A stretch of DNA of 64,000 nt, from IMG/VR virus record IMGVR_UViG_3300037067_002413, positions 1 to 64,000 of that record, one strand, 5' to 3'. Source of the stretch: a virus. Taxonomy: Duplodnaviria; Caudoviricetes. Below are positions 14,973 to 63,928 of the stretch, one piece after another. How positions within the stretch are numbered: the stretch's first letter is position 1; the number at the start of each line of letters is the position of its first letter. The position numbers were made by a program, and so were the translations under genes. The notes under the pieces are model-generated. The model was not told the origin of the DNA. It saw only the letters and a program-made list of their open reading frames with translations, and did not search any database.

Positions 14973-15011
14973 GTGCAAATCCTACCTCGCCTAACCCGCA
15001 TCAAAAATGAG

Positions 15012-15086
15012 TGGGGAGAGCGGGAGTCGAACCCGCACATTGCGTCCCTTGTCGGGCCGTCTCTGCTCTTGTTGGACTATCTCCCC
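15012..15086 (-). ncRNA. tRNA-like element with an aberrant anticodon arm
   Basis: GGGGAGA/TCTCCCC acceptor stem and GCGGG-TTCGACT-CCCGC T arm; D and anticodon arms non-canonical. Confidence 0.6.
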
Positions 15087-19537: not shown

Positions 19538-19896
19538 TATGATTTATCCTCTATAACAACTCTGTGTGTTCGTTTTCCAAGTTGAATCACGCCCCAACCA
19601 GGATCAAGAAATCCTGACAGCATGTTGGGGTCACTGACTTGACTTCCGTTCCACTTCATTGATCCTTCTTTGATCTTGCGAATGACTGCACTTCTCGTTG
19701 CAATAAATCCGCTCTTGACAACAACGTCAGCAAAAGCGTCAAAGCGAATTATTCCGCTTGGGATTTTCGGTTGGCACCAATTGATGACGTGCTCCAACGT
19801 CTCGGCATCAATCGACCGTGGATTGTTTAGCAATTCCCAAAGGTCATCAAATGGAAACGCTACCATCATGTCGGCGAATGTTTTAGGTTTTGTCAT
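19537..19896 (-). CDS. Stand-alone S4-like RNA-binding domain resembling the TyrRS C-terminus
   Basis: ADVVVKSGFIATRSAVIRKIKEGSMKWNGSQVSDP...VIQLGKR. Confidence 0.65.
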   Translation of the reverse strand: MTKPKTFADMMVAFPFDDLWELLNNPRSIDAETLEHVINWCQPKIPSGIIRFDAFADVVVKSGFIATRSAVIRKIKEGSMKWNGSQVSDPNMLSGFLDPGWGVIQLGKRTHRVVIEDKS

Positions 19897-20197
19897 GGGT
19901 GTCGATGATGTATCGTCCAGCGGGTATGTATCCATCTGCCACTAGAACGTCAAGCATCAGGGGAAGATTTCTGTTGTGACGGCCGCGACGGAGATCGTTT
20001 GCCTGTTGACTGGTGATTTGAGGACCATCGCCGCGAACTTGATATTCAAGGCAGAGACCATTCACGGTTCCCGTGTTGAATAGAAGGTCAAACTCGAAGC
20101 CAAATACCTGTCTGATGTACTCCTCTAAATCCTGATATTTCACTCGAAACACGGGAATTATGACTGCTTTGAGCTTAGGCTTAGGGTCTGTCGGCAT
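19883..20197 (-). CDS. Hypothetical protein
   Basis: 3' part of the tracked ORF, starting MPTDPKPK, coupled to the next gene. Confidence 0.55.
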   Translation of the reverse strand: MPTDPKPKLKAVIIPVFRVKYQDLEEYIRQVFGFEFDLLFNTGTVNGLCLEYQVRGDGPQITSQQANDLRRGRHNRNLPLMLDVLVADGYIPAGRYIIDTHDKT

Positions 20198-20728
20198 CTG
20201 ATGGCGTTTCTCAGATTGAGTTCTGTTAATTAGCACGACTTGACTCCGTTGTGGCTGGGTGGTATAGTGAGGTTTGGTAGTTTCGGTAGTTTCTTTAACC
20301 CAGAGAGGATACGTTATGTACCATTTCACATTAGGAGACATGGAGTGCCAGTGTGACACTCCTGACGAATTGCGAAAAATCTGCGAAGGTAGGTCAACCA
20401 GATTCGTCCCCATCTGTTCCAGGGAAACCAGGGATGCCATCCCGGACCCACCCACGGCGAAGGAATCCACCAAGGCCAATACCAGGGAAGTGTTTGGCAT
20501 TGGCAGTGGCACTTTGCCGTATAAGGAACCGTCACGGGAGGAAGTCGTGAAAGAGTTGCCATACGTTGACGAACCTTTGACATGGAAGGTGGCTAATAGG
20601 TGGGCCAAGAAACTTGGCCGAAAGGATGTTTCGCAACTTCGTTCTGACCTGTGTGCCCGTAAGAAAATGGGCAAGTAGGTCATCAATCAAATGGTCGCCG
20701 GCATGAGGCCGGCGACTATTATTTATAG

Positions 20729-20851
20729 TCGCATCGGTAGGGATCGAACCTACGACTACAGGCTCCCTGATAACCCTTGCCTACGACCCGTTGGGTAAAT
20801 GGCGGGAAGGGTAATTTGACCTGCGCCTCTTCCATCTGGGCTACGATGCGA
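20729..20851 (-). ncRNA. tRNA-Y RNA chimera (remote copy)
   Basis: CGCATCG/CGATGCG acceptor, D arm, CAGGT/GCCTG stem, GTAGG-TTCGATC-CCTAC T arm; the anticodon loop holds CCCTT..GCC..TTACCC-aac-GGGT(C)GT.GGC.AAGGG-TTATC. Confidence 0.8.
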
Positions 20852-21007
20852 TCGGTCTACTCAATCGAGTTCATCAGAATTTCGATGTGCTCCCGCAATG
20901 ATTGCAAGCGGTTGAGCGTCTCATCTTCCGTTACACTGTGATCGGAAAATACTTCGTCGATCGCCTTCTCGGCTTTTTCGTCAAGTGTCATCTGTTACCT
21001 CTGCGTT

Positions 21008-21466
21008 TTAATGTTTGTCTTCACCGAAAATTGCCCCGATGCCAGCGACCCCTAATTCGTTGTCATCAGTATCAAAGGTGACGATCGTGTCGATCATCAT
21101 ATTTCTTCCAATCTTTTCGCGGAACTCGTATATTTTTCCCTTCTCGGATACTGAGCAAGTGAACGAGTCGCCTGGTTCAACAGGTATGGAACCTGGTAAT
21201 TTATATCGCTGTCTTTCTTTCAACATTCTTCATTCTTCCGTGAATTGGAAGGCGTCCGGTGCAATGGCTTCCTGATCGAACGAGACGACGTTGAAAATCT
21301 CGTCTTCCATACGAAGCATTAGTCCCTCAATGAACGGATGTTGCTGGGCAATTGCAACAGTCTCCCGTACTTCTTCGTGGTCGATTAGTTTGGCGTTTTC
21401 ATTGGGCTTAATGCGGGAGAACTTCCCACCAGTGCCCCGTTTGTAAAAAATGGCATACTGTCGCAT
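21008..21466 (-). CDS. Two small hypothetical proteins (21230-21466, 21008-21226)
   Basis: Consecutive ORFs; GGAG RBS before 21466. Confidence 0.6.
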
Positions 21467-21495: not shown

Positions 21496-21537
21496 CCTCT
21501 AATAAGACGACGTGGAAATTGGTGAAATCTGGTCTAT
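21496..21537 (-). promoter_or_regulatory. Class II phage promoter-like element, copy 1
   Basis: Reverse complement ATAGACCAGATTTCACCAATTTCCACGTCGTCTTATTAGAGG is 38/42 identical to 61533-61574. Confidence 0.75.
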
Positions 21538-21643: not shown

Positions 21644-21681
21644 TGACCATTTTTTTGATTTCTGCGCAACCTTATAGGTAC
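21644..21681 (+). promoter_or_regulatory. Class I phage promoter/operator element, copy 1
   Basis: TGACCA-N11-TCTGCGCAACCTTATAGGTAC; also at 52787 (+) and 52695 (-). Confidence 0.75.
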
Positions 21682-52657: not shown

Positions 52658-52695
52658 GTGCCTATAAGGTTGCGCAGATTTCAGAAAAATGGTCA
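52658..52695 (-). promoter_or_regulatory. Class I element, copy 2 (faces the primase operon)
   Basis: Reverse complement TGACCA-N11-TCTGCGCAACCTTATAGGCAC. Confidence 0.75.
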
Positions 52696-52786: not shown

Positions 52787-52824
52787 TGACCAAATTGCAA
52801 AAATCTGCGCAACCTTATAGGTAC
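52787..52824 (+). promoter_or_regulatory. Class I element, copy 3 (faces the ParB operon)
   Basis: TGACCA-N11-TCTGCGCAACCTTATAGGTAC. Confidence 0.75.
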
Positions 52825-60738: not shown

Positions 60739-61536
60739 ATGGAACGGCTTGCTCGATACGATGTTTATAATGTACCACTTGCTGATATTTGGATTGATCC
60801 AGATTTCAATTGCCGAAATGCCTTTACCTTCCAGTCTGTTAAGGGACTGGCGGATAACATCGAACAAACCGGACTTGAGATTCCAGTTATTCTTCAACGA
60901 CGAGAGGATAGTCAGATAGAATTTTCGGAACCATTCCGTTTGGTTGCCGGTTTTCGTCGTTTGGCAGCCGTGAAGACGTTTCTGCATTGGAATTCTATTC
61001 CTGCTAATGTTCGAGAAAACTTGAATGACCGAGCAGCAGAGATTCTAAATCTAACAGAGAATTTGGAACGCGAAGACCTCAATCCGCTGGAACAGGCACA
61101 AGCACTCACTCGTAGATTTCCGCCTGGAAGTTCGTTACGAACGATCGCTAAGGAGATGCACCGGGACGCGCATTGGGTACACCAACGCCTGCGGATTATG
61201 CAATTGCCAGAGGAGTTGCGTGAGAAGGTAGCGGCTAAGTTGCTCACACTCTTGGACGTAGACGTACTCGTGAAACTTCCACCAGAGGAGCAAATCGAGG
61301 CAGCCAAAGAAATTATTATTGCCAGAGGAAAGCGAACACGAAAACTCAACGTCAATCCGAAATTTCGGCGAAAGTTTAAGTATCGTCGTGGAAAGGAAGA
61401 GATCAATTTTAGAATTGGTCAACTGATGGAGGCGGGATTGAGTGGCCTCGTAACACGATTCGGTGCCTGGTGTGCGGGTTATATCAGTGATGACGAGTTC
61501 GATCAGGATATTTTGCAAGAAACACATAAAATATAG
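60739..61536 (+). CDS. ParB/Spo0J-like protein
   Basis: N.R..F....LA..I...GL..PV; LVAGFRRL.A; EN.EREDLNPLE.A; HTH. Confidence 0.88.
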   Translation: MERLARYDVYNVPLADIWIDPDFNCRNAFTFQSVKGLADNIEQTGLEIPVILQRREDSQIEFSEPFRLVAGFRRLAAVKTFLHWNSIPANVRENLNDRAAEILNLTENLEREDLNPLEQAQALTRRFPPGSSLRTIAKEMHRDAHWVHQRLRIMQLPEELREKVAAKLLTLLDVDVLVKLPPEEQIEAAKEIIIARGKRTRKLNVNPKFRRKFKYRRGKEEINFRIGQLMEAGLSGLVTRFGAWCAGYISDDEFDQDILQETHKI

Positions 61537-61574
61537 ACCAGATTTCACCTATTTTTACGTCGTCCTATTAGAGG
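61533..61574 (+). promoter_or_regulatory. Class II promoter-like element, copy 2 (heads the Y RNA/Ro60 operon)
   Basis: 38/42 identical to the reverse complement of 21496-21537; ends within the first bases of Y unit 1. Confidence 0.75.
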
Positions 61575-61635: not shown

Positions 61636-61760
61636 GGATGCCGTAGTTCAGTTGGTAGAACACTAAAACCGCTGACCAACCTTTGCCCTGCAAGGGCCAA
61701 ATGGAAAGCGTTATCACCTGTTAAGTGAGAGGTCGCGGGTTCGAGTCCCGCCGGTATCCG
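61636..61760 (+). ncRNA. tRNA-Asn(GTT)-Y RNA chimera (unit 2)
   Basis: Full cloverleaf with a ~50-nt insert (61665-61714): CGCT..CCA..TTTGCCC-tgcaa-GGGC(C)AAA TGG..AGCG-TTATC. Confidence 0.8.
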
Positions 61761-61766
61761 TTTTAT

Positions 61767-61893
61767 GTACGTTGTAGCTCAGCGGTAGAGCACAAGTCAA
61801 AGAACCGCTTTCAAGTTTCTTGCCCTATGGGCCGAACTGAAAGCGTTATCAACAAGGAACTTGTGGTCGTGGGTTCGAGTCCCGCCAACGTGC
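61767..61893 (+). ncRNA. tRNA-Y RNA chimera (unit 3)
   Basis: GTACGTTG/CAACGTGC acceptor; CAAGT/ACTTG stem; loop contains CGCTTTCA..CTTGCCC-tat-GGGC(C)GA..TGAAAGCG-TTATC. Confidence 0.8.
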
Positions 61894-61896
61894 TTT

Positions 61897-61993
61897 GGGT
61901 GTGAAGCTCAATTGGTTGAGCACCCGTTTTCACCATTAACTCGAAAGGGTCGAATGAAAATGGTTATCGTAGGTTCGAGTCCTATCGCACCCG
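61897..61993 (+). ncRNA. tRNA-Y RNA chimera (unit 4)
   Basis: GGGTGTG/CGCACCC acceptor; anticodon arm replaced by CCGTTTTCA..ACTC-gaaa-GGGT(C)GA.TGAAAATGG; TTATC forms the variable loop. Confidence 0.75.
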
Positions 61994-62329: not shown

Positions 62330-63928
62330 ATGAAGACTTTAGCCAAGCACGTTTCAGTTCGGATTACTCCGCAGACTCGACCGATTCCTGGAAAGAATCA
62401 AGAGCAGAACAACGCAGGTGGGTATACGTTCGTTCTGGATTGTTGGGGACGACTTCAACGGTTTTTGATTCTCGGTTCCGAGGGCGGGACGTATTATGTC
62501 GGCGAACAAAAGTTGACGGAACAAAATGCGTCCGCCGTTGCTGAATGTGGTGAAGAAGACGCGGCCAAAGCCGTGGAGATGATCGCCTCGATCAGCGAAT
62601 CGGGCCGTGCTCCAAAGAATGATTCTGCTATTTTCGCCCTGGCACTTTTGGCGAGTCAGGCGGACGATACTGTTCGACGACTGGCATTGGCTGCGTTGCC
62701 GCGTGTTTGCCGCACGGCTACCCATTTGTTCCAATTCGTTGCGAACTGCAAGGAACTGCGCGGTTGGGGCCGTGGATTGCGTGAGGCGGTCGCCGGCTGG
62801 TACAACGAGAAGCCGGTTGACAAACTCGCCTATCAGGTGACGAAATACAGGAACCGTGCCGGCTACACGCATCGGGATATTCTCCGGCTTAGTCATCCGA
62901 AGACGGGCGATTACGAACGAAACAATCTATACCGTTGGATTACGAAGGGGACTCTCCCAGACGAAATCACGGTTGCGTTTAATCCGTTGGCTTTGATTTT
63001 TGGCTTGGAAGCAGCAAATGCTCTTTTGCCTACCGACGTGAAGGGGATGATCGGACTGATCGAACTTTACGGGTTGACTTTGGAGCATGTGCCCAATCAT
63101 TTCCTTAGCAGCCCGGCTGTATGGGAAGCCTTGCTTCCGAATCTGCCGCCCACGGCAATGATCCGAAATCTGGGTAAGATGACCAGCGTCGGCCTTCTGA
63201 AACCACTATCGGTATCTGCGAATATGGTTTGCAACGTGCTGACCAATCCCGATCGCCTTCGTGGTGCTCGCGTGCATCCACTATCCGTCTTGATTGCCAC
63301 CGACACATACAGTCAAGGCCACGGCGTCAAGGGGTCGCTGACATGGCAGCCGGTGGGACAAATCAGGGACGCCCTTGAGGAAGCATTTTATTCTGCCTTT
63401 GACGCCGTGGAGTTGACGGGTAAACGACATTTGTTGAGTCTGGATGTGTCCGGTTCGATGGGCTGGTCGTTACTTGCCAACACTAGATTGAGTGCTGCCA
63501 AGGCCGCCGCTTGCATGGCGATGGTTACGCATCGACTTGAGCCGCAAACTCATGTGATGGGTTTCTCCAACGATCTGGTTCCGATCGACATTTCCAAGAA
63601 GGAACGTCTCGATGCCTTGGTAACCAAGATTGGTCGTATTCCGATGGGCGGAACTGATTGTAGTCTGCCCATGCTCTACGCGGCTCAACAGAAGTTGGAC
63701 GTGGATGCCTTTGTGGTATACACGGATAACGAGACTTGGGGTGGGAAGATTCACCCCATTCAAGCTCTCAAGATTTACCGTCAAGCGAGCGGCATCAACG
63801 CCAAGTTGATTGTCGTCGGAATGACCGCCAGCCAGTTCACGATCGCCGATCCTTCTGATGCCGGCATGTTGGACGTTGTTGGTTTTGACGCTTCCTGCCC
63901 AGCCGTAATGGCTGATTTCGTTCGTTGA
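62330..63928 (+). CDS. rsr: Ro60 / TROVE-domain RNA-binding protein
   Basis: N.AGGY.F....W..L.RFLILGSEGGTYY; KY.NR.G..H.D.LRL.HP; AMIRNLGKMT; vWA MIDAS DVSGSM, GGTD, YTDNETW; GGAG RBS at 62321. Confidence 0.95.
   Translation: MKTLAKHVSVRITPQTRPIPGKNQEQNNAGGYTFVLDCWGRLQRFLILGSEGGTYYVGEQKLTEQNASAVAECGEEDAAKAVEMIASISESGRAPKNDSAIFALALLASQADDTVRRLALAALPRVCRTATHLFQFVANCKELRGWGRGLREAVAGWYNEKPVDKLAYQVTKYRNRAGYTHRDILRLSHPKTGDYERNNLYRWITKGTLPDEITVAFNPLALIFGLEAANALLPTDVKGMIGLIELYGLTLEHVPNHFLSSPAVWEALLPNLPPTAMIRNLGKMTSVGLLKPLSVSANMVCNVLTNPDRLRGARVHPLSVLIATDTYSQGHGVKGSLTWQPVGQIRDALEEAFYSAFDAVELTGKRHLLSLDVSGSMGWSLLANTRLSAAKAAACMAMVTHRLEPQTHVMGFSNDLVPIDISKKERLDALVTKIGRIPMGGTDCSLPMLYAAQQKLDVDAFVVYTDNETWGGKIHPIQALKIYRQASGINAKLIVVGMTASQFTIADPSDAGMLDVVGFDASCPAVMADFVR

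What the first reader, a model, noticed from the sequence alone, without database searches (positions are those of the whole stretch)
20729..20851. A fourth tRNA-Y chimera 41 kb from Ro60 on the opposite strand
Seen: the reverse complement folds as a cloverleaf whose anticodon loop holds CCCTT..GCC..TTACCC-aac-GGGT(C)GT.GGC.AAGGG-TTATC. This is the same permuted module with compensatory changes (GGGT/ACCC) on a different tRNA scaffold. Inference: the chimera is a selected, repeatedly used design rather than a local duplication accident, and the Ro60 system extends to a second locus.
Basis: partly seen in the sequence, partly recalled or inferred. Interest (0 to 1): 0.85.

Follow-up and report, generated by a model that had tools for sequence, protein, structure and literature searches.

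The report
Remote tRNA-shaped Y RNA gene
A 146-kb uncultured phage carries, 41 kb from its Ro60 gene, a conserved 121-base RNA gene wired like a normal tRNA whose anticodon loop is replaced by the hairpin that Ro60 proteins dock on. This shows that these tRNA-shaped partner RNAs, which I did not find in the papers I could search, are stand-alone units and need not sit beside Ro60.

Summary
Window 20730-20850 (- strand) is a complete tRNA body: 7-bp acceptor, D arm, 5-bp anticodon stem, 5-nt variable loop and a UUCGAUC T arm. In place of the anticodon loop it has a loop-closed Y-RNA module, UUUACCC-AAC-GGGU(C)GUA ... GGGUUAUC.

- A covariance model built from Ro60-proximal unit B alone scores it 61.9 bits (E about 1e-12).
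- A model built only from 15 Ro60-adjacent chimeras of other viral contigs scores it 72.8 bits (E about 1e-14).
- A model of the module alone, without tRNA arms, ranks it as the best non-self hit (25.1 bits, E about 1e-4).
- A related 148.6-kb phage keeps an orthologous copy in the same small operon, 43.7 kb from its own Ro60 array. That copy is 88% identical, against 38-72% for the flanking ORFs, and 13 of its 14 substitutions are unpaired or pair-preserving.
- Both loci follow the same phage promoter-like element, which has three copies in the genome.

It most likely acts as a tRNA-order Y RNA, a circular permutation of YrlA. Ro60 binding and expression are untested. This scan has noted the class on many other genomes. 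New here are the remote, solitary copy and its conservation. Novelty: a new variant of a known kind.

The parts
21496..21537 (-). Promoter-like element heading the remote operon. It is 38/42 identical to 61533-61574 (+), which heads the Y RNA array and Ro60.
   Evidence: blastn-short E 1e-8. A third copy lies at genome 86371-86409. In phage G001 the downstream core CGTCGTCTTAGTAGAGG is kept at both loci, and the upstream half differs from this phage but is near-identical between G001's two loci.
21230..21466 (-). ORF of 78 aa, first gene of the operon, no known family
   Evidence: ortholog in G001 at 64% aa identity
21008..21226 (-). ORF of 72 aa, no known family, poorly conserved in G001
   Evidence: 38% DNA identity in A6
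20857..20991 (-). ORF of 44 aa whose stop codon ends 6 nt before the RNA; no known family
   Evidence: 72% DNA identity to G001
20730..20850 (-). tRNA-order Y RNA (type II chimera, no anticodon loop); discriminator A at 20729
   Evidence: R1 61.9 bits, R2 72.8 bits, ARAGORN -i, ortholog 88.4% identical
20759..20823 (-). Anticodon stem (20819-20823 with 20759-20763) enclosing the Y module
   Evidence: Module-only model R3: 25.1 bits, E 1e-4, best non-self hit in the window
20782..20800 (-). Putative Ro60-docking helix: AUUUACCC (20793-20800), loop AAC (20790-20792), GGGUCGUA (20782-20789) with bulged C at 20785
   Evidence: Read from the sequence. The same GGGUCGUAGG strand is present in the chimera about 2 kb from the Ro60 gene of jumbo phage G007.
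20769..20773 (-). UUAUC pentamer that follows the module in every unit of this genome
20694..20716 (-). G+C-rich terminator-like hairpin 12 nt after the discriminator, conserved in G001; it could also serve the convergent + strand ORF 20274-20678
61637..61993 (+). Three Ro60-proximal chimeras: A 61637-61759, B 61768-61892, C 61897-61993. These were the comparison and training units.
62330..63928 (+). Ro60 (TROVE plus vWA-type) gene, the only one in the genome
   Evidence: PF05731 89 and 54 bits; phrog_850 E 6e-82

Best explanation
The element is a functional small-RNA gene of the tRNA-order Y RNA class. This class has a tRNA body with open acceptor ends and a loop-closed Ro60-docking helix where the anticodon loop would be. 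It is a circular permutation of bacterial YrlA.

Proposed working:
1. It is transcribed as the last cistron of a four-part unit (promoter-like element, three small ORFs, RNA, terminator), from a promoter type that also drives the Y RNA array and Ro60. (Inferred.)
2. RNase P cuts at its 5' end, 6-7 nt after the ORF44 stop. The 3' trailer is removed and CCA is added by host enzymes, since no CCA is encoded and the phage has no CCA enzyme. This gives an RNA of about 121-125 nt. (Inferred from tRNA features.)
3. The GGGU-C-GUA / UUUACCC bulged helix plus UUAUC binds the phage Ro60. (Inferred from the module.)
4. The tRNA-shaped body serves as the effector or tether domain, as proposed for YrlA. 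It would bring Ro60 to a tRNA-binding partner such as PNPase or another tRNA-recognising protein. (Inferred by analogy.)

It lacks an anticodon loop, so it is not a decoding tRNA.

Shown here: the structure, its significance, conservation with covariation, family membership, synteny and the shared promoter element. Not shown: expression, processing, Ro60 binding.
For: Covariance models:
- R1 (unit B only): 61.9 bits, E 1e-12, full length. The best ordinary tRNA scores 42 bits with the module skipped.
- R2 (15 chimeras from 12 other contigs, 13 with a Ro60 match in the held locus): 72.8 bits, E 1e-14.
- R3 (module only): 25.1 bits, E 1e-4; the next background hit scores 12.8 bits.

Ortholog in G001 at 128853-128974, in the same ORF78-ORF72-ORF44-RNA-terminator order:
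- The RNA is 88.4% identical, against 65.8, 38.4 and 71.9% for the three ORFs.
- Of 14 substitutions, 10 are in loops or linkers, 2 keep a pair (G-C to G-U, U-G to U-A), 1 is at an existing mismatch and 1 breaks a helix-end pair.

Family alignment A7: 94.5% of cells paired, 32 of 37 pairs with a change on both sides, 0 of 500 shuffles reach this; slid controls give 37-46% paired.

Ro60 linkage of the family: chimeras lie within about 0.1-2 kb of a Ro60 gene in 13 of 17 viral loci and 14 of 16 bacterial loci.

tRNA tertiary-contact nucleotides are present: U8, A14, G15:C48, G18 G19, U54 U55 C56.

The shared promoter-like element changes in concert at both loci in G001.

A solitary unit cannot be read as a YrlA spanning two tandem units, and Rfam YrlA gives no hit here at E<=10.
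Against: - There are no expression data and no Ro60-binding data.
- The published bacterial motif GNCGAAN0-1G (PMC4201824) is matched with one deviation (GUCGUAGG).
- The thermodynamic MFE fold keeps the acceptor and the module but not the D and T arms. The cloverleaf is -32.8 kcal/mol against an MFE of -41.5, and the z-score is only -1.9.
- The neighbouring genes have no RNA-related annotation.
- The promoter-like element also heads an unrelated ORF at 86.4 kb.
- Alignment A7 was fitted to the model's structure, which favours that structure.
- Only one ortholog of the remote locus was found.
Confidence: 0.62

Rival explanations
1. It is a tRNA gene with a 48-nt intron (ARAGORN calls it tRNA-Pro AGG) that is spliced to give a decoding tRNA.
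For: ARAGORN with introns allowed reports tRNA-Pro(agg) with intron (34,48) at c[20728,20850]. Removing positions 34-81 leaves a 7-nt loop, CCAGGGA.
Against: - That loop has C, not U, at position 33, and A34 is unusual.
- ARAGORN builds the 'anticodon' of unit B from the opposite linker, so the calls are forced fits.
- 48 nt is far too short for a group I intron.
- Both junction strands flank the same end of one helix, so there is no bulge-helix-bulge arrangement (from the sequence).
- The 'intron' is the most conserved, Ro60-motif-bearing part and covaries as a helix.
Confidence: 0.04
2. It is a decaying duplicate of a Ro60-proximal unit that was carried elsewhere by rearrangement and has no function.
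For: - It shares type II architecture and the CAGGU anticodon-stem strand with unit B orthologs.
- Its Ro motif deviates from the published consensus.
- Only one ortholog is known.
Against: - It is 88% identical to the G001 ortholog while the flanking ORFs are 38-72% identical.
- 13 of 14 substitutions avoid breaking pairs.
- All 35 pairs are intact.
- Promoter-like element, spacing and terminator are kept.
Confidence: 0.07
3. It is mainly a cis-acting 3' processing or stabilising element of the ORF78-72-44 mRNA. On this reading, RNase P cleavage at the tRNA-like structure makes the mRNA's 3' end, as for mascRNA-type elements, and the released RNA is of secondary importance.
For: - It begins 6-7 nt after the ORF44 stop, and the same arrangement is kept in G001.
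- tRNA-like 3'-end processing is an established mechanism (background in 10.1101/312249).
Against: - This does not explain the conserved Ro-type module with covariation.
- It does not explain the same design beside Ro60 genes without upstream ORFs.
- It is compatible with the best explanation rather than exclusive of it.
Confidence: 0.12
4. It is a tRNA mimic that acts without Ro60, for example as a decoy or inhibitor for a host tRNA-targeting defence nuclease or a tRNA-binding enzyme. The Ro-like hairpin would then be only a structural arm.
For: - It is 41 kb from Ro60 on the other strand, in an operon of unknown small proteins.
- Phages commonly carry tRNA-related countermeasures (general knowledge).
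- The Ro motif is a variant.
Against: - The module-only model picks it out.
- The same variant strand GGGUCGUAGG occurs in a chimera about 2 kb from the Ro60 gene in G007.
- Every genome at least 90% complete found to carry chimeras also encodes Ro60.
Confidence: 0.13

Closest known systems
YrlA (Y RNA-like A; Rfam RF02553; Salmonella, Mycobacterium, mycobacteriophages; Chen et al. 2014 PMC4201824; Wang et al. 2018 bioRxiv 10.1101/312249)
   Same: - A Ro60-type 5' strand motif joined through the 'anticodon stem' to a tRNA-like body with D and T arms and tRNA tertiary-contact nucleotides.
- The strand order GGGYCG... then UUAUC, then variable loop, then T arm is the same.
- Found in phages that encode Ro60.
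   Different: - YrlA has its RNA ends at the Ro60 stem and a loop-closed acceptor stem ('circularly permuted tRNA', no free CCA end). Here the acceptor is open and the Ro stem is loop-closed.
- RF02553 gives no hit at the candidate, and only 28 bits (gathering score 69) across unit boundaries in the array.
- YrlA genes were defined as lying within 4 kb of Ro60 on the same strand. This copy is 41.5 kb away on the other strand.
[quoted passage not shown]
   Same: It ends up with a 7-bp acceptor stem carrying free, CCA-tailed ends, while the Ro60 module sits at the anticodon end.
   Different: That RNA becomes two pieces held together by base pairing. The element here would be one continuous chain and needs no internal cut.
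Deinococcus radiodurans Yrn1 (PMC4201824)
   Same: A Y RNA with tRNA-like T arm features whose D/T order relative to the RNA ends is that of a normal tRNA. It is the Y RNA shown to tether Rsr to PNPase.
   Different: In Yrn1 the Ro60-binding stem takes the place of the acceptor stem and is formed by the RNA ends. Here the acceptor stem is a normal tRNA acceptor and the Ro stem is internal.
Metazoan Y RNAs and nematode stem-bulge RNAs (Rfam RF00019, RF01656)
   Same: A bulged-C helix of the GGUCCGA/UUGACUA type as the Ro60 site. The free-standing small Y units of this phage weakly match these models.
   Different: They have no tRNA body, and the helix is formed by the RNA termini.
Intron-containing or permuted tRNA genes (algal and archaeal permuted tRNAs, cited in 10.1101/312249)
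   Same: Gene finders report the element as a tRNA with an intron.
   Different: There is no splice-motif geometry, no anticodon loop after removal of the insert, and the insert itself is the conserved functional-looking part.

Membership tests
YrlA (RF02553) | Score at or above the Rfam gathering threshold (69 bits) | tested here: not met
   No YrlA match at E<=10 in 20400-21200. Even in the Ro60-proximal array the best score is 28.7 bits, spanning from unit A's module to unit B's.
YrlA (RF02553) | Ro60-site motif GNCGAAN0-1G on the 5' strand | tested here: inconclusive
   The candidate has GUCGUAGG, one deviation (A to U). G001 has GUCGCAGG. The free-standing Y units of this phage also deviate (GCCGAU, GCCGUC, GCCGAC).
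YrlA (RF02553) | tRNA-like domain with D and T arms and tertiary-contact nucleotides | tested here: met
   U8, A14, G15:C48, G18 G19 and the UUCGAUC T loop; D and T stems pair.
YrlA (RF02553) | Closed acceptor stem-loop, with the RNA termini forming the Ro60 stem | tested here: not met
   The acceptor strands are at the two ends of the unit (20844-20850 with 20730-20736). The Ro helix is closed by loop AAC.
YrlA (RF02553) | Encoded within about 4 kb of Ro60 on the same strand (criterion of PMC4201824) | tested here: not met
   41.5 kb away, on the opposite strand.
YrlA (RF02553) | Bound by Ro60/Rsr in vivo | not testable with these tools
   Needs RIP or EMSA.
tRNA (RF00005) | Cloverleaf with a 7-nt anticodon loop, and a score above the gathering threshold | tested here: not met
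   No RF00005 hit at the candidate in gathering or E<=10 mode. ARAGORN finds it only with introns allowed. No U33-N3-R37 loop remains.
tRNA-order Y RNA chimeras (class seen in this scan; no publication found) | Full-length match to covariance models built from Ro60-adjacent units | tested here: met
   R1 61.9 bits, R2 72.8 bits.
tRNA-order Y RNA chimeras (class seen in this scan; no publication found) | Loop-closed bulged helix plus UUAUC, significant without the tRNA arms | tested here: met
   R3 25.1 bits, E 1e-4; genome-wide motif count of 8.
tRNA-order Y RNA chimeras (class seen in this scan; no publication found) | Covariation in all helices | tested here: met
   (the alignment was fitted to the model, which favours it). 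Two pair-preserving changes against the ortholog.
tRNA-order Y RNA chimeras (class seen in this scan; no publication found) | Adjacent to a Ro60 gene | tested here: not met
   This copy is remote. The family rule holds for 13 of 17 viral and 14 of 16 bacterial loci. Other remote copies occur in G001, G007 and G008.
Intron-containing tRNA | Group I intron core, or bulge-helix-bulge splice motif | tested here: not met
   The insert is 48 nt. Both junction strands flank one end of the same helix (sequence).

The most novel reading that the evidence does not exclude
tRNA-order Y RNAs may be a major, perhaps ancestral, form of bacterial and phage Y RNA. On this reading, YrlA arose by reading across two tandem units, which is the 'dimeric tRNA' origin proposed in 10.1101/312249. 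The Rfam YrlA model matches exactly such a span here, 61693-61829.

With their open acceptor ends these RNAs would be matured like tRNAs and receive CCA. The type I members keep a U33/A37 anticodon-like hairpin and might even be aminoacylated. Ro60 would then be tethered to tRNA-handling machinery.

Genes for them can be scattered in the genome and co-regulated by a shared promoter.
Probability: 0.2. Interest if true: 0.85.

Novelty: new variant of a known kind. Interest (0 to 1): 0.66.

Why it matters
Y RNAs are the obligate partners of Ro60, from bacteria to humans. In bacteria and phages they have been catalogued only as YrlA-type RNAs within 4 kb of Ro60, and hits overlapping tandem tRNA genes were deliberately discarded (PMC4201824).

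This solitary, conserved copy shows two things. The tRNA-connected topology is the real unit, not an artefact of parsing tandem arrays. And Y RNA genes can lie tens of kilobases from Ro60, so surveys that look only beside Ro60 undercount them.

It also offers a clean single-unit substrate for testing three questions: whether a loop-closed Ro helix binds Ro60, whether such RNAs are processed and CCA-tailed like tRNAs, and how YrlA evolved from tRNA.

For annotation, such genes are either missed or called 'tRNA with intron'.

Tried and rejected
- **MAFFT alignments of the three proximal units.** Whole units (A1) and modules only (A5) both put the helices out of register because the loops differ in length. 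I therefore did not build a three-unit model. I used unit B alone (R1 and R3) and a model-derived alignment of foreign units (R2).
- **Unit C.** R1 could not align unit C's module (A4).
- **Rfam.** Nothing is significant at the candidate.
- **GenBank phages.** No match to the remote locus.
- **Exact-pattern scan of viral contigs for the candidate's module.** It found only G001.
- **ORF78 relatives.** Only G001 and one 19-kb fragment (L123) were found. No chimera was found in the roughly 1.1 kb held downstream in L123.
- **Pfam and PHROGs for ORF78, ORF72 and ORF44.** No family matched.
- **RtcB and CCA-adding enzyme.** Neither was found in the phage.
- **Sequencing runs.** No RNA holder is listed. 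The DNA holders are landfill and groundwater metagenomes. I did not lay reads.
- **Discarded run.** A first tblastn used a mis-framed Ro60 translation; it was discarded and redone.
- **Papers not held.** Two reviews could not be read, and the supplements of PMC4201824 are not held. I therefore could not check whether some 'YrlA with longer acceptor stem' entries are in fact tandem chimeras.
- **tRNA-with-intron reading.** Considered and rejected; see the rival explanations.
- **ARAGORN anticodon labels** (Pro AGG for the candidate, Leu AAG for unit B). Rejected as forced fits.

Full report
**What is there.**
On the - strand, 20850 to 20730 reads as a complete tRNA body with a foreign arm. The parts, in order, are:
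- a 7-bp acceptor (CGCAUCG/CGAUGCG, discriminator A 20729, U at -1), then U8 A9
- a D arm (GCCC/G(A)GGC, with G18 G19 in the loop)
- a 5-bp anticodon stem (CAGGU/GCCUG)
- a 5-nt variable loop (UAGUC, allowing G15:C48)
- a canonical T arm (GUAGG-UUCGAUC-CCUAC)

Instead of a 7-nt anticodon loop, the anticodon stem encloses a longer insert. It runs CAAAUUA, an outer helix (CCCUU/AAGGG and GCC/GGC), a helix UUUACCC / GGGU-C-GUA with one bulged C closed by the triloop AAC, and then UUAUC-AGGGA.

This is the Ro60-site helix of Y RNAs (GGUCCGA/UUGACUA type) in permuted strand order. The '3' strand' comes first and the former RNA termini are replaced by a loop. All 35 pairs are standard or G-U.

**Setting in the genome.**
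The window is the first 64 kb of a single 145,969-bp viral contig.
- Its only TROVE/Ro60 gene is at 62330-63928.
- That gene is preceded by free-standing small Y units (weak Y_RNA and sbRNA matches).
- It is also preceded by three tRNA-order chimeras, A, B and C.

**Is it more than chance?**
- The motif GGGYCRH-N4-18-GTTATC occurs eight times in the whole genome on both strands. Seven are in the Ro60-upstream array and one is this element.
MAFFT put the helices of the three units out of register, so I built model R1 from unit B alone with its structure. With filters off, R1 scores the candidate 61.9 bits (E about 1e-12), full length with the module aligned. That is level with unit A (63 bits) and above the phage's ordinary tRNA-Asn (42 bits, module skipped).
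- Model R3 covers only unit B's anticodon stem plus module, with no acceptor, D or T arm. It ranks the candidate's insert (20759-20823) as the best non-self hit in the window: 25.1 bits, E about 1e-4. The next background hit scores 12.8 bits.
- Model R2 was trained on 15 chimeras from 12 other IMG/VR contigs and on nothing from this genome. It scores the candidate 72.8 bits, E about 1e-14.
- E-values from these shortened calibrations are rough, but the margins are large.

**Conservation.**
A whole-record search found a related 148,650-bp phage (G001, Ro60 80% identical). It has chimeras at 84994-85253 (-) beside its Ro60 and one more at 128853-128974 (+), 43.7 kb away on the other strand.
- Aligning the two remote loci shows the same order: promoter core, ORF78, ORF72, ORF44, RNA, terminator.
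- The RNA is 88.4% identical. The three ORFs are 65.8, 38.4 and 71.9% identical at the DNA level.
- Of the 14 substitutions in the RNA, 10 fall in loops or linkers, two keep a pair (G-C to G-U; U-G to U-A), one is at an existing mismatch, and one breaks a helix-end pair.
- About 57% of the positions are paired. Three or fewer of 14 hits in paired positions has a binomial probability of about 0.006 (my calculation).

**The family.**
A degenerate pattern (Ro strand, GTTATC, T arm) recovered 119 viral loci.
- R1 found full-length tRNA-order units in 17 of them.
- 13 of these 17 loci have a Ro60 match, usually within 0.1-2 kb, with identities from 80% down to 44%.
- A 20-member alignment has 94.5% of cells paired, and 32 of 37 pairs show a change on both sides. 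All seven acceptor pairs are 100% paired with five or fewer pair types each. None of 500 shuffles reaches these values, and slid controls give 37-46% paired.
- That alignment is fitted to the model, which favours the structure. The acceptor covariation still shows that the 5' and 3' ends of each unit pair with each other, not with the neighbouring unit.
- The same design lies beside Ro60 genes in bacterial genome contigs. These include cyanobacteria, Myxococcota, Chloroflexota, Armatimonadota and Gemmatimonadota. In 14 of 16 such loci a Ro60 match is held in the same locus, usually within about 1 kb.

**Two subtypes.**
- Type I keeps a 5-bp anticodon stem and a 7-nt loop with U33 and A37. Examples include GUU, GCA, GAU, CAU and UCU. 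The module is inserted between positions 28 and 29 (unit A, and many others).
- Type II has no such hairpin. Members are unit B and its orthologs, the candidate, and its G001 ortholog.

**Other remote copies.**
- Jumbo phage G007 has one chimera about 2 kb from its Ro60 and another 16.5 kb further on, among tRNA genes.
- G008 has two in a tRNA array 58 kb from its Ro60-proximal ones.
- The G007 Ro60-proximal unit carries the same GGGUCGUAGG strand as the candidate.

**Regulatory context.**
- A 42-bp element is 38/42 identical between 21537-21496 (-) and 61533-61574 (+). The latter runs straight into the first Y unit.
- There is a third copy, 39/39 identical, at genome 86371-86409. It heads an 80-aa ORF. 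The element therefore marks a promoter class, not a private Y RNA regulon.
- In G001 the downstream core (CGTCGTCTTAGTAGAGG) is kept at both loci. The upstream half differs from this phage but is near-identical between G001's own two loci. This fits co-evolution with one transcription factor.
- A conserved G+C-rich hairpin follows the RNA.
- The RNA starts 6-7 nt after the ORF44 stop, so RNase P cleavage would also create the 3' end of the mRNA (inference).
- No CCA is encoded, and the phage has no CCA-adding enzyme or RtcB.
- The neighbouring genes are an AAA ATPase and DNA methyltransferases. The three small ORFs have no family.

**Comparison with what is known.**
YrlA is described as a tRNA-like Y RNA with a closed acceptor stem, no free CCA end and no anticodon loop, "resembling circularly permuted tRNAs" (PMC4201824; 10.1101/312249).
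- M. smegmatis YrlA is cut by RNase P and CCA-tailed, giving a two-piece molecule.
- The element here has the inverse connectivity. It is not detected by RF02553.
- The published survey also discarded hits overlapping tandem tRNA genes and reported only hits within 4 kb of Ro60. That survey would not have reported it.
- In the array, RF02553 weakly matches 61693-61829, from unit A's module to unit B's. This is the 'dimeric tRNA' route to YrlA discussed by Wang et al.
- I found no description of tRNA-order Y RNAs in the papers I could search. Two reviews and the supplements were not available.
- Other agents of this scan have noted the class on many other genomes.

**Verdict.**
The element is a real, conserved, solitary member of the tRNA-order Y RNA class. 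Ro60 binding, processing and expression remain inference, and no RNA data set was available. The thermodynamic fold alone does not give the D and T arms, as is common for tRNAs.

Noticed in passing
genome G000:C1:86371-86409 (outside the window): Third copy of the promoter-like element, 39/39 identical to 61534-61572. It heads an 80-aa ORF (86421-86663) that is followed by a hairpin. The element is therefore a small promoter class with three copies in the genome.
   Followed up: partly
window 61693-61829: The Rfam YrlA model matches at 28.7 bits (below its threshold) from the module of unit A across the unit boundary to the module of unit B. Tandem chimeras thus mimic a YrlA, which may bear on the origin of YrlA and on published YrlA lists.
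   Followed up: partly
window 61637-61759 and many loci (e.g. L028 3507-3628, L061 12466-12584, L227 1116-1243): Most family members (type I) keep a 5-bp anticodon stem and a 7-nt loop with U33 and A37, with varied 'anticodons' (GUU, GCA, GAU, CAU, UCU, CCU ...). The Y module is inserted between positions 28 and 29. Some 'anticodons' start with A, which is unusual for real tRNAs.
   Followed up: partly
window 15011-15086 (-): ARAGORN calls a tRNA-Cys with anticodon ACA. Rfam tRNA did not report it at its gathering threshold in the whole-window search. R2 gives 32 bits. It is an odd tRNA-like gene at the end of the methyltransferase block.
   Followed up: no
window 21644-21681 versus 52661-52695 and 52804-52824: Another repeated intergenic element (91-100% identical over 21-35 nt) lies in divergent promoter regions. 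It is unrelated to the Y RNA loci.
   Followed up: no
genome G000:C1:93609-93965 (outside the window): ARAGORN with introns allowed reports a tRNA-Gly with a 6-nt insert and an adjacent tRNA-Thr with a 174-nt insert. Neither was examined.
   Followed up: no
L126 213-482 (G008:C1:332912-333181): Two tandem remote chimeras sit inside a large tRNA array of a 499-kb phage. They use UUAAC instead of UUAUC after the module and have a longer apical loop.
   Followed up: partly
L209, L138, L161, L165, L171, L141, L136, L197, L196, L183 (bacterial genome contigs): tRNA-order chimeras lie next to Ro60 genes in MAGs of cyanobacteria, Chloroflexia, Myxococcota, Gemmatimonadota and Armatimonadota. PMC4201824 reported few YrlA RNAs in cyanobacteria and delta-proteobacteria.
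   Followed up: partly
window 20274-20678 (+) versus 19883-20686 (-): Two overlapping ORFs lie on opposite strands downstream of the terminator. The end of the + strand ORF (…MGK*) is conserved in G001, which suggests a convergent gene sharing the bidirectional hairpin.
   Followed up: partly
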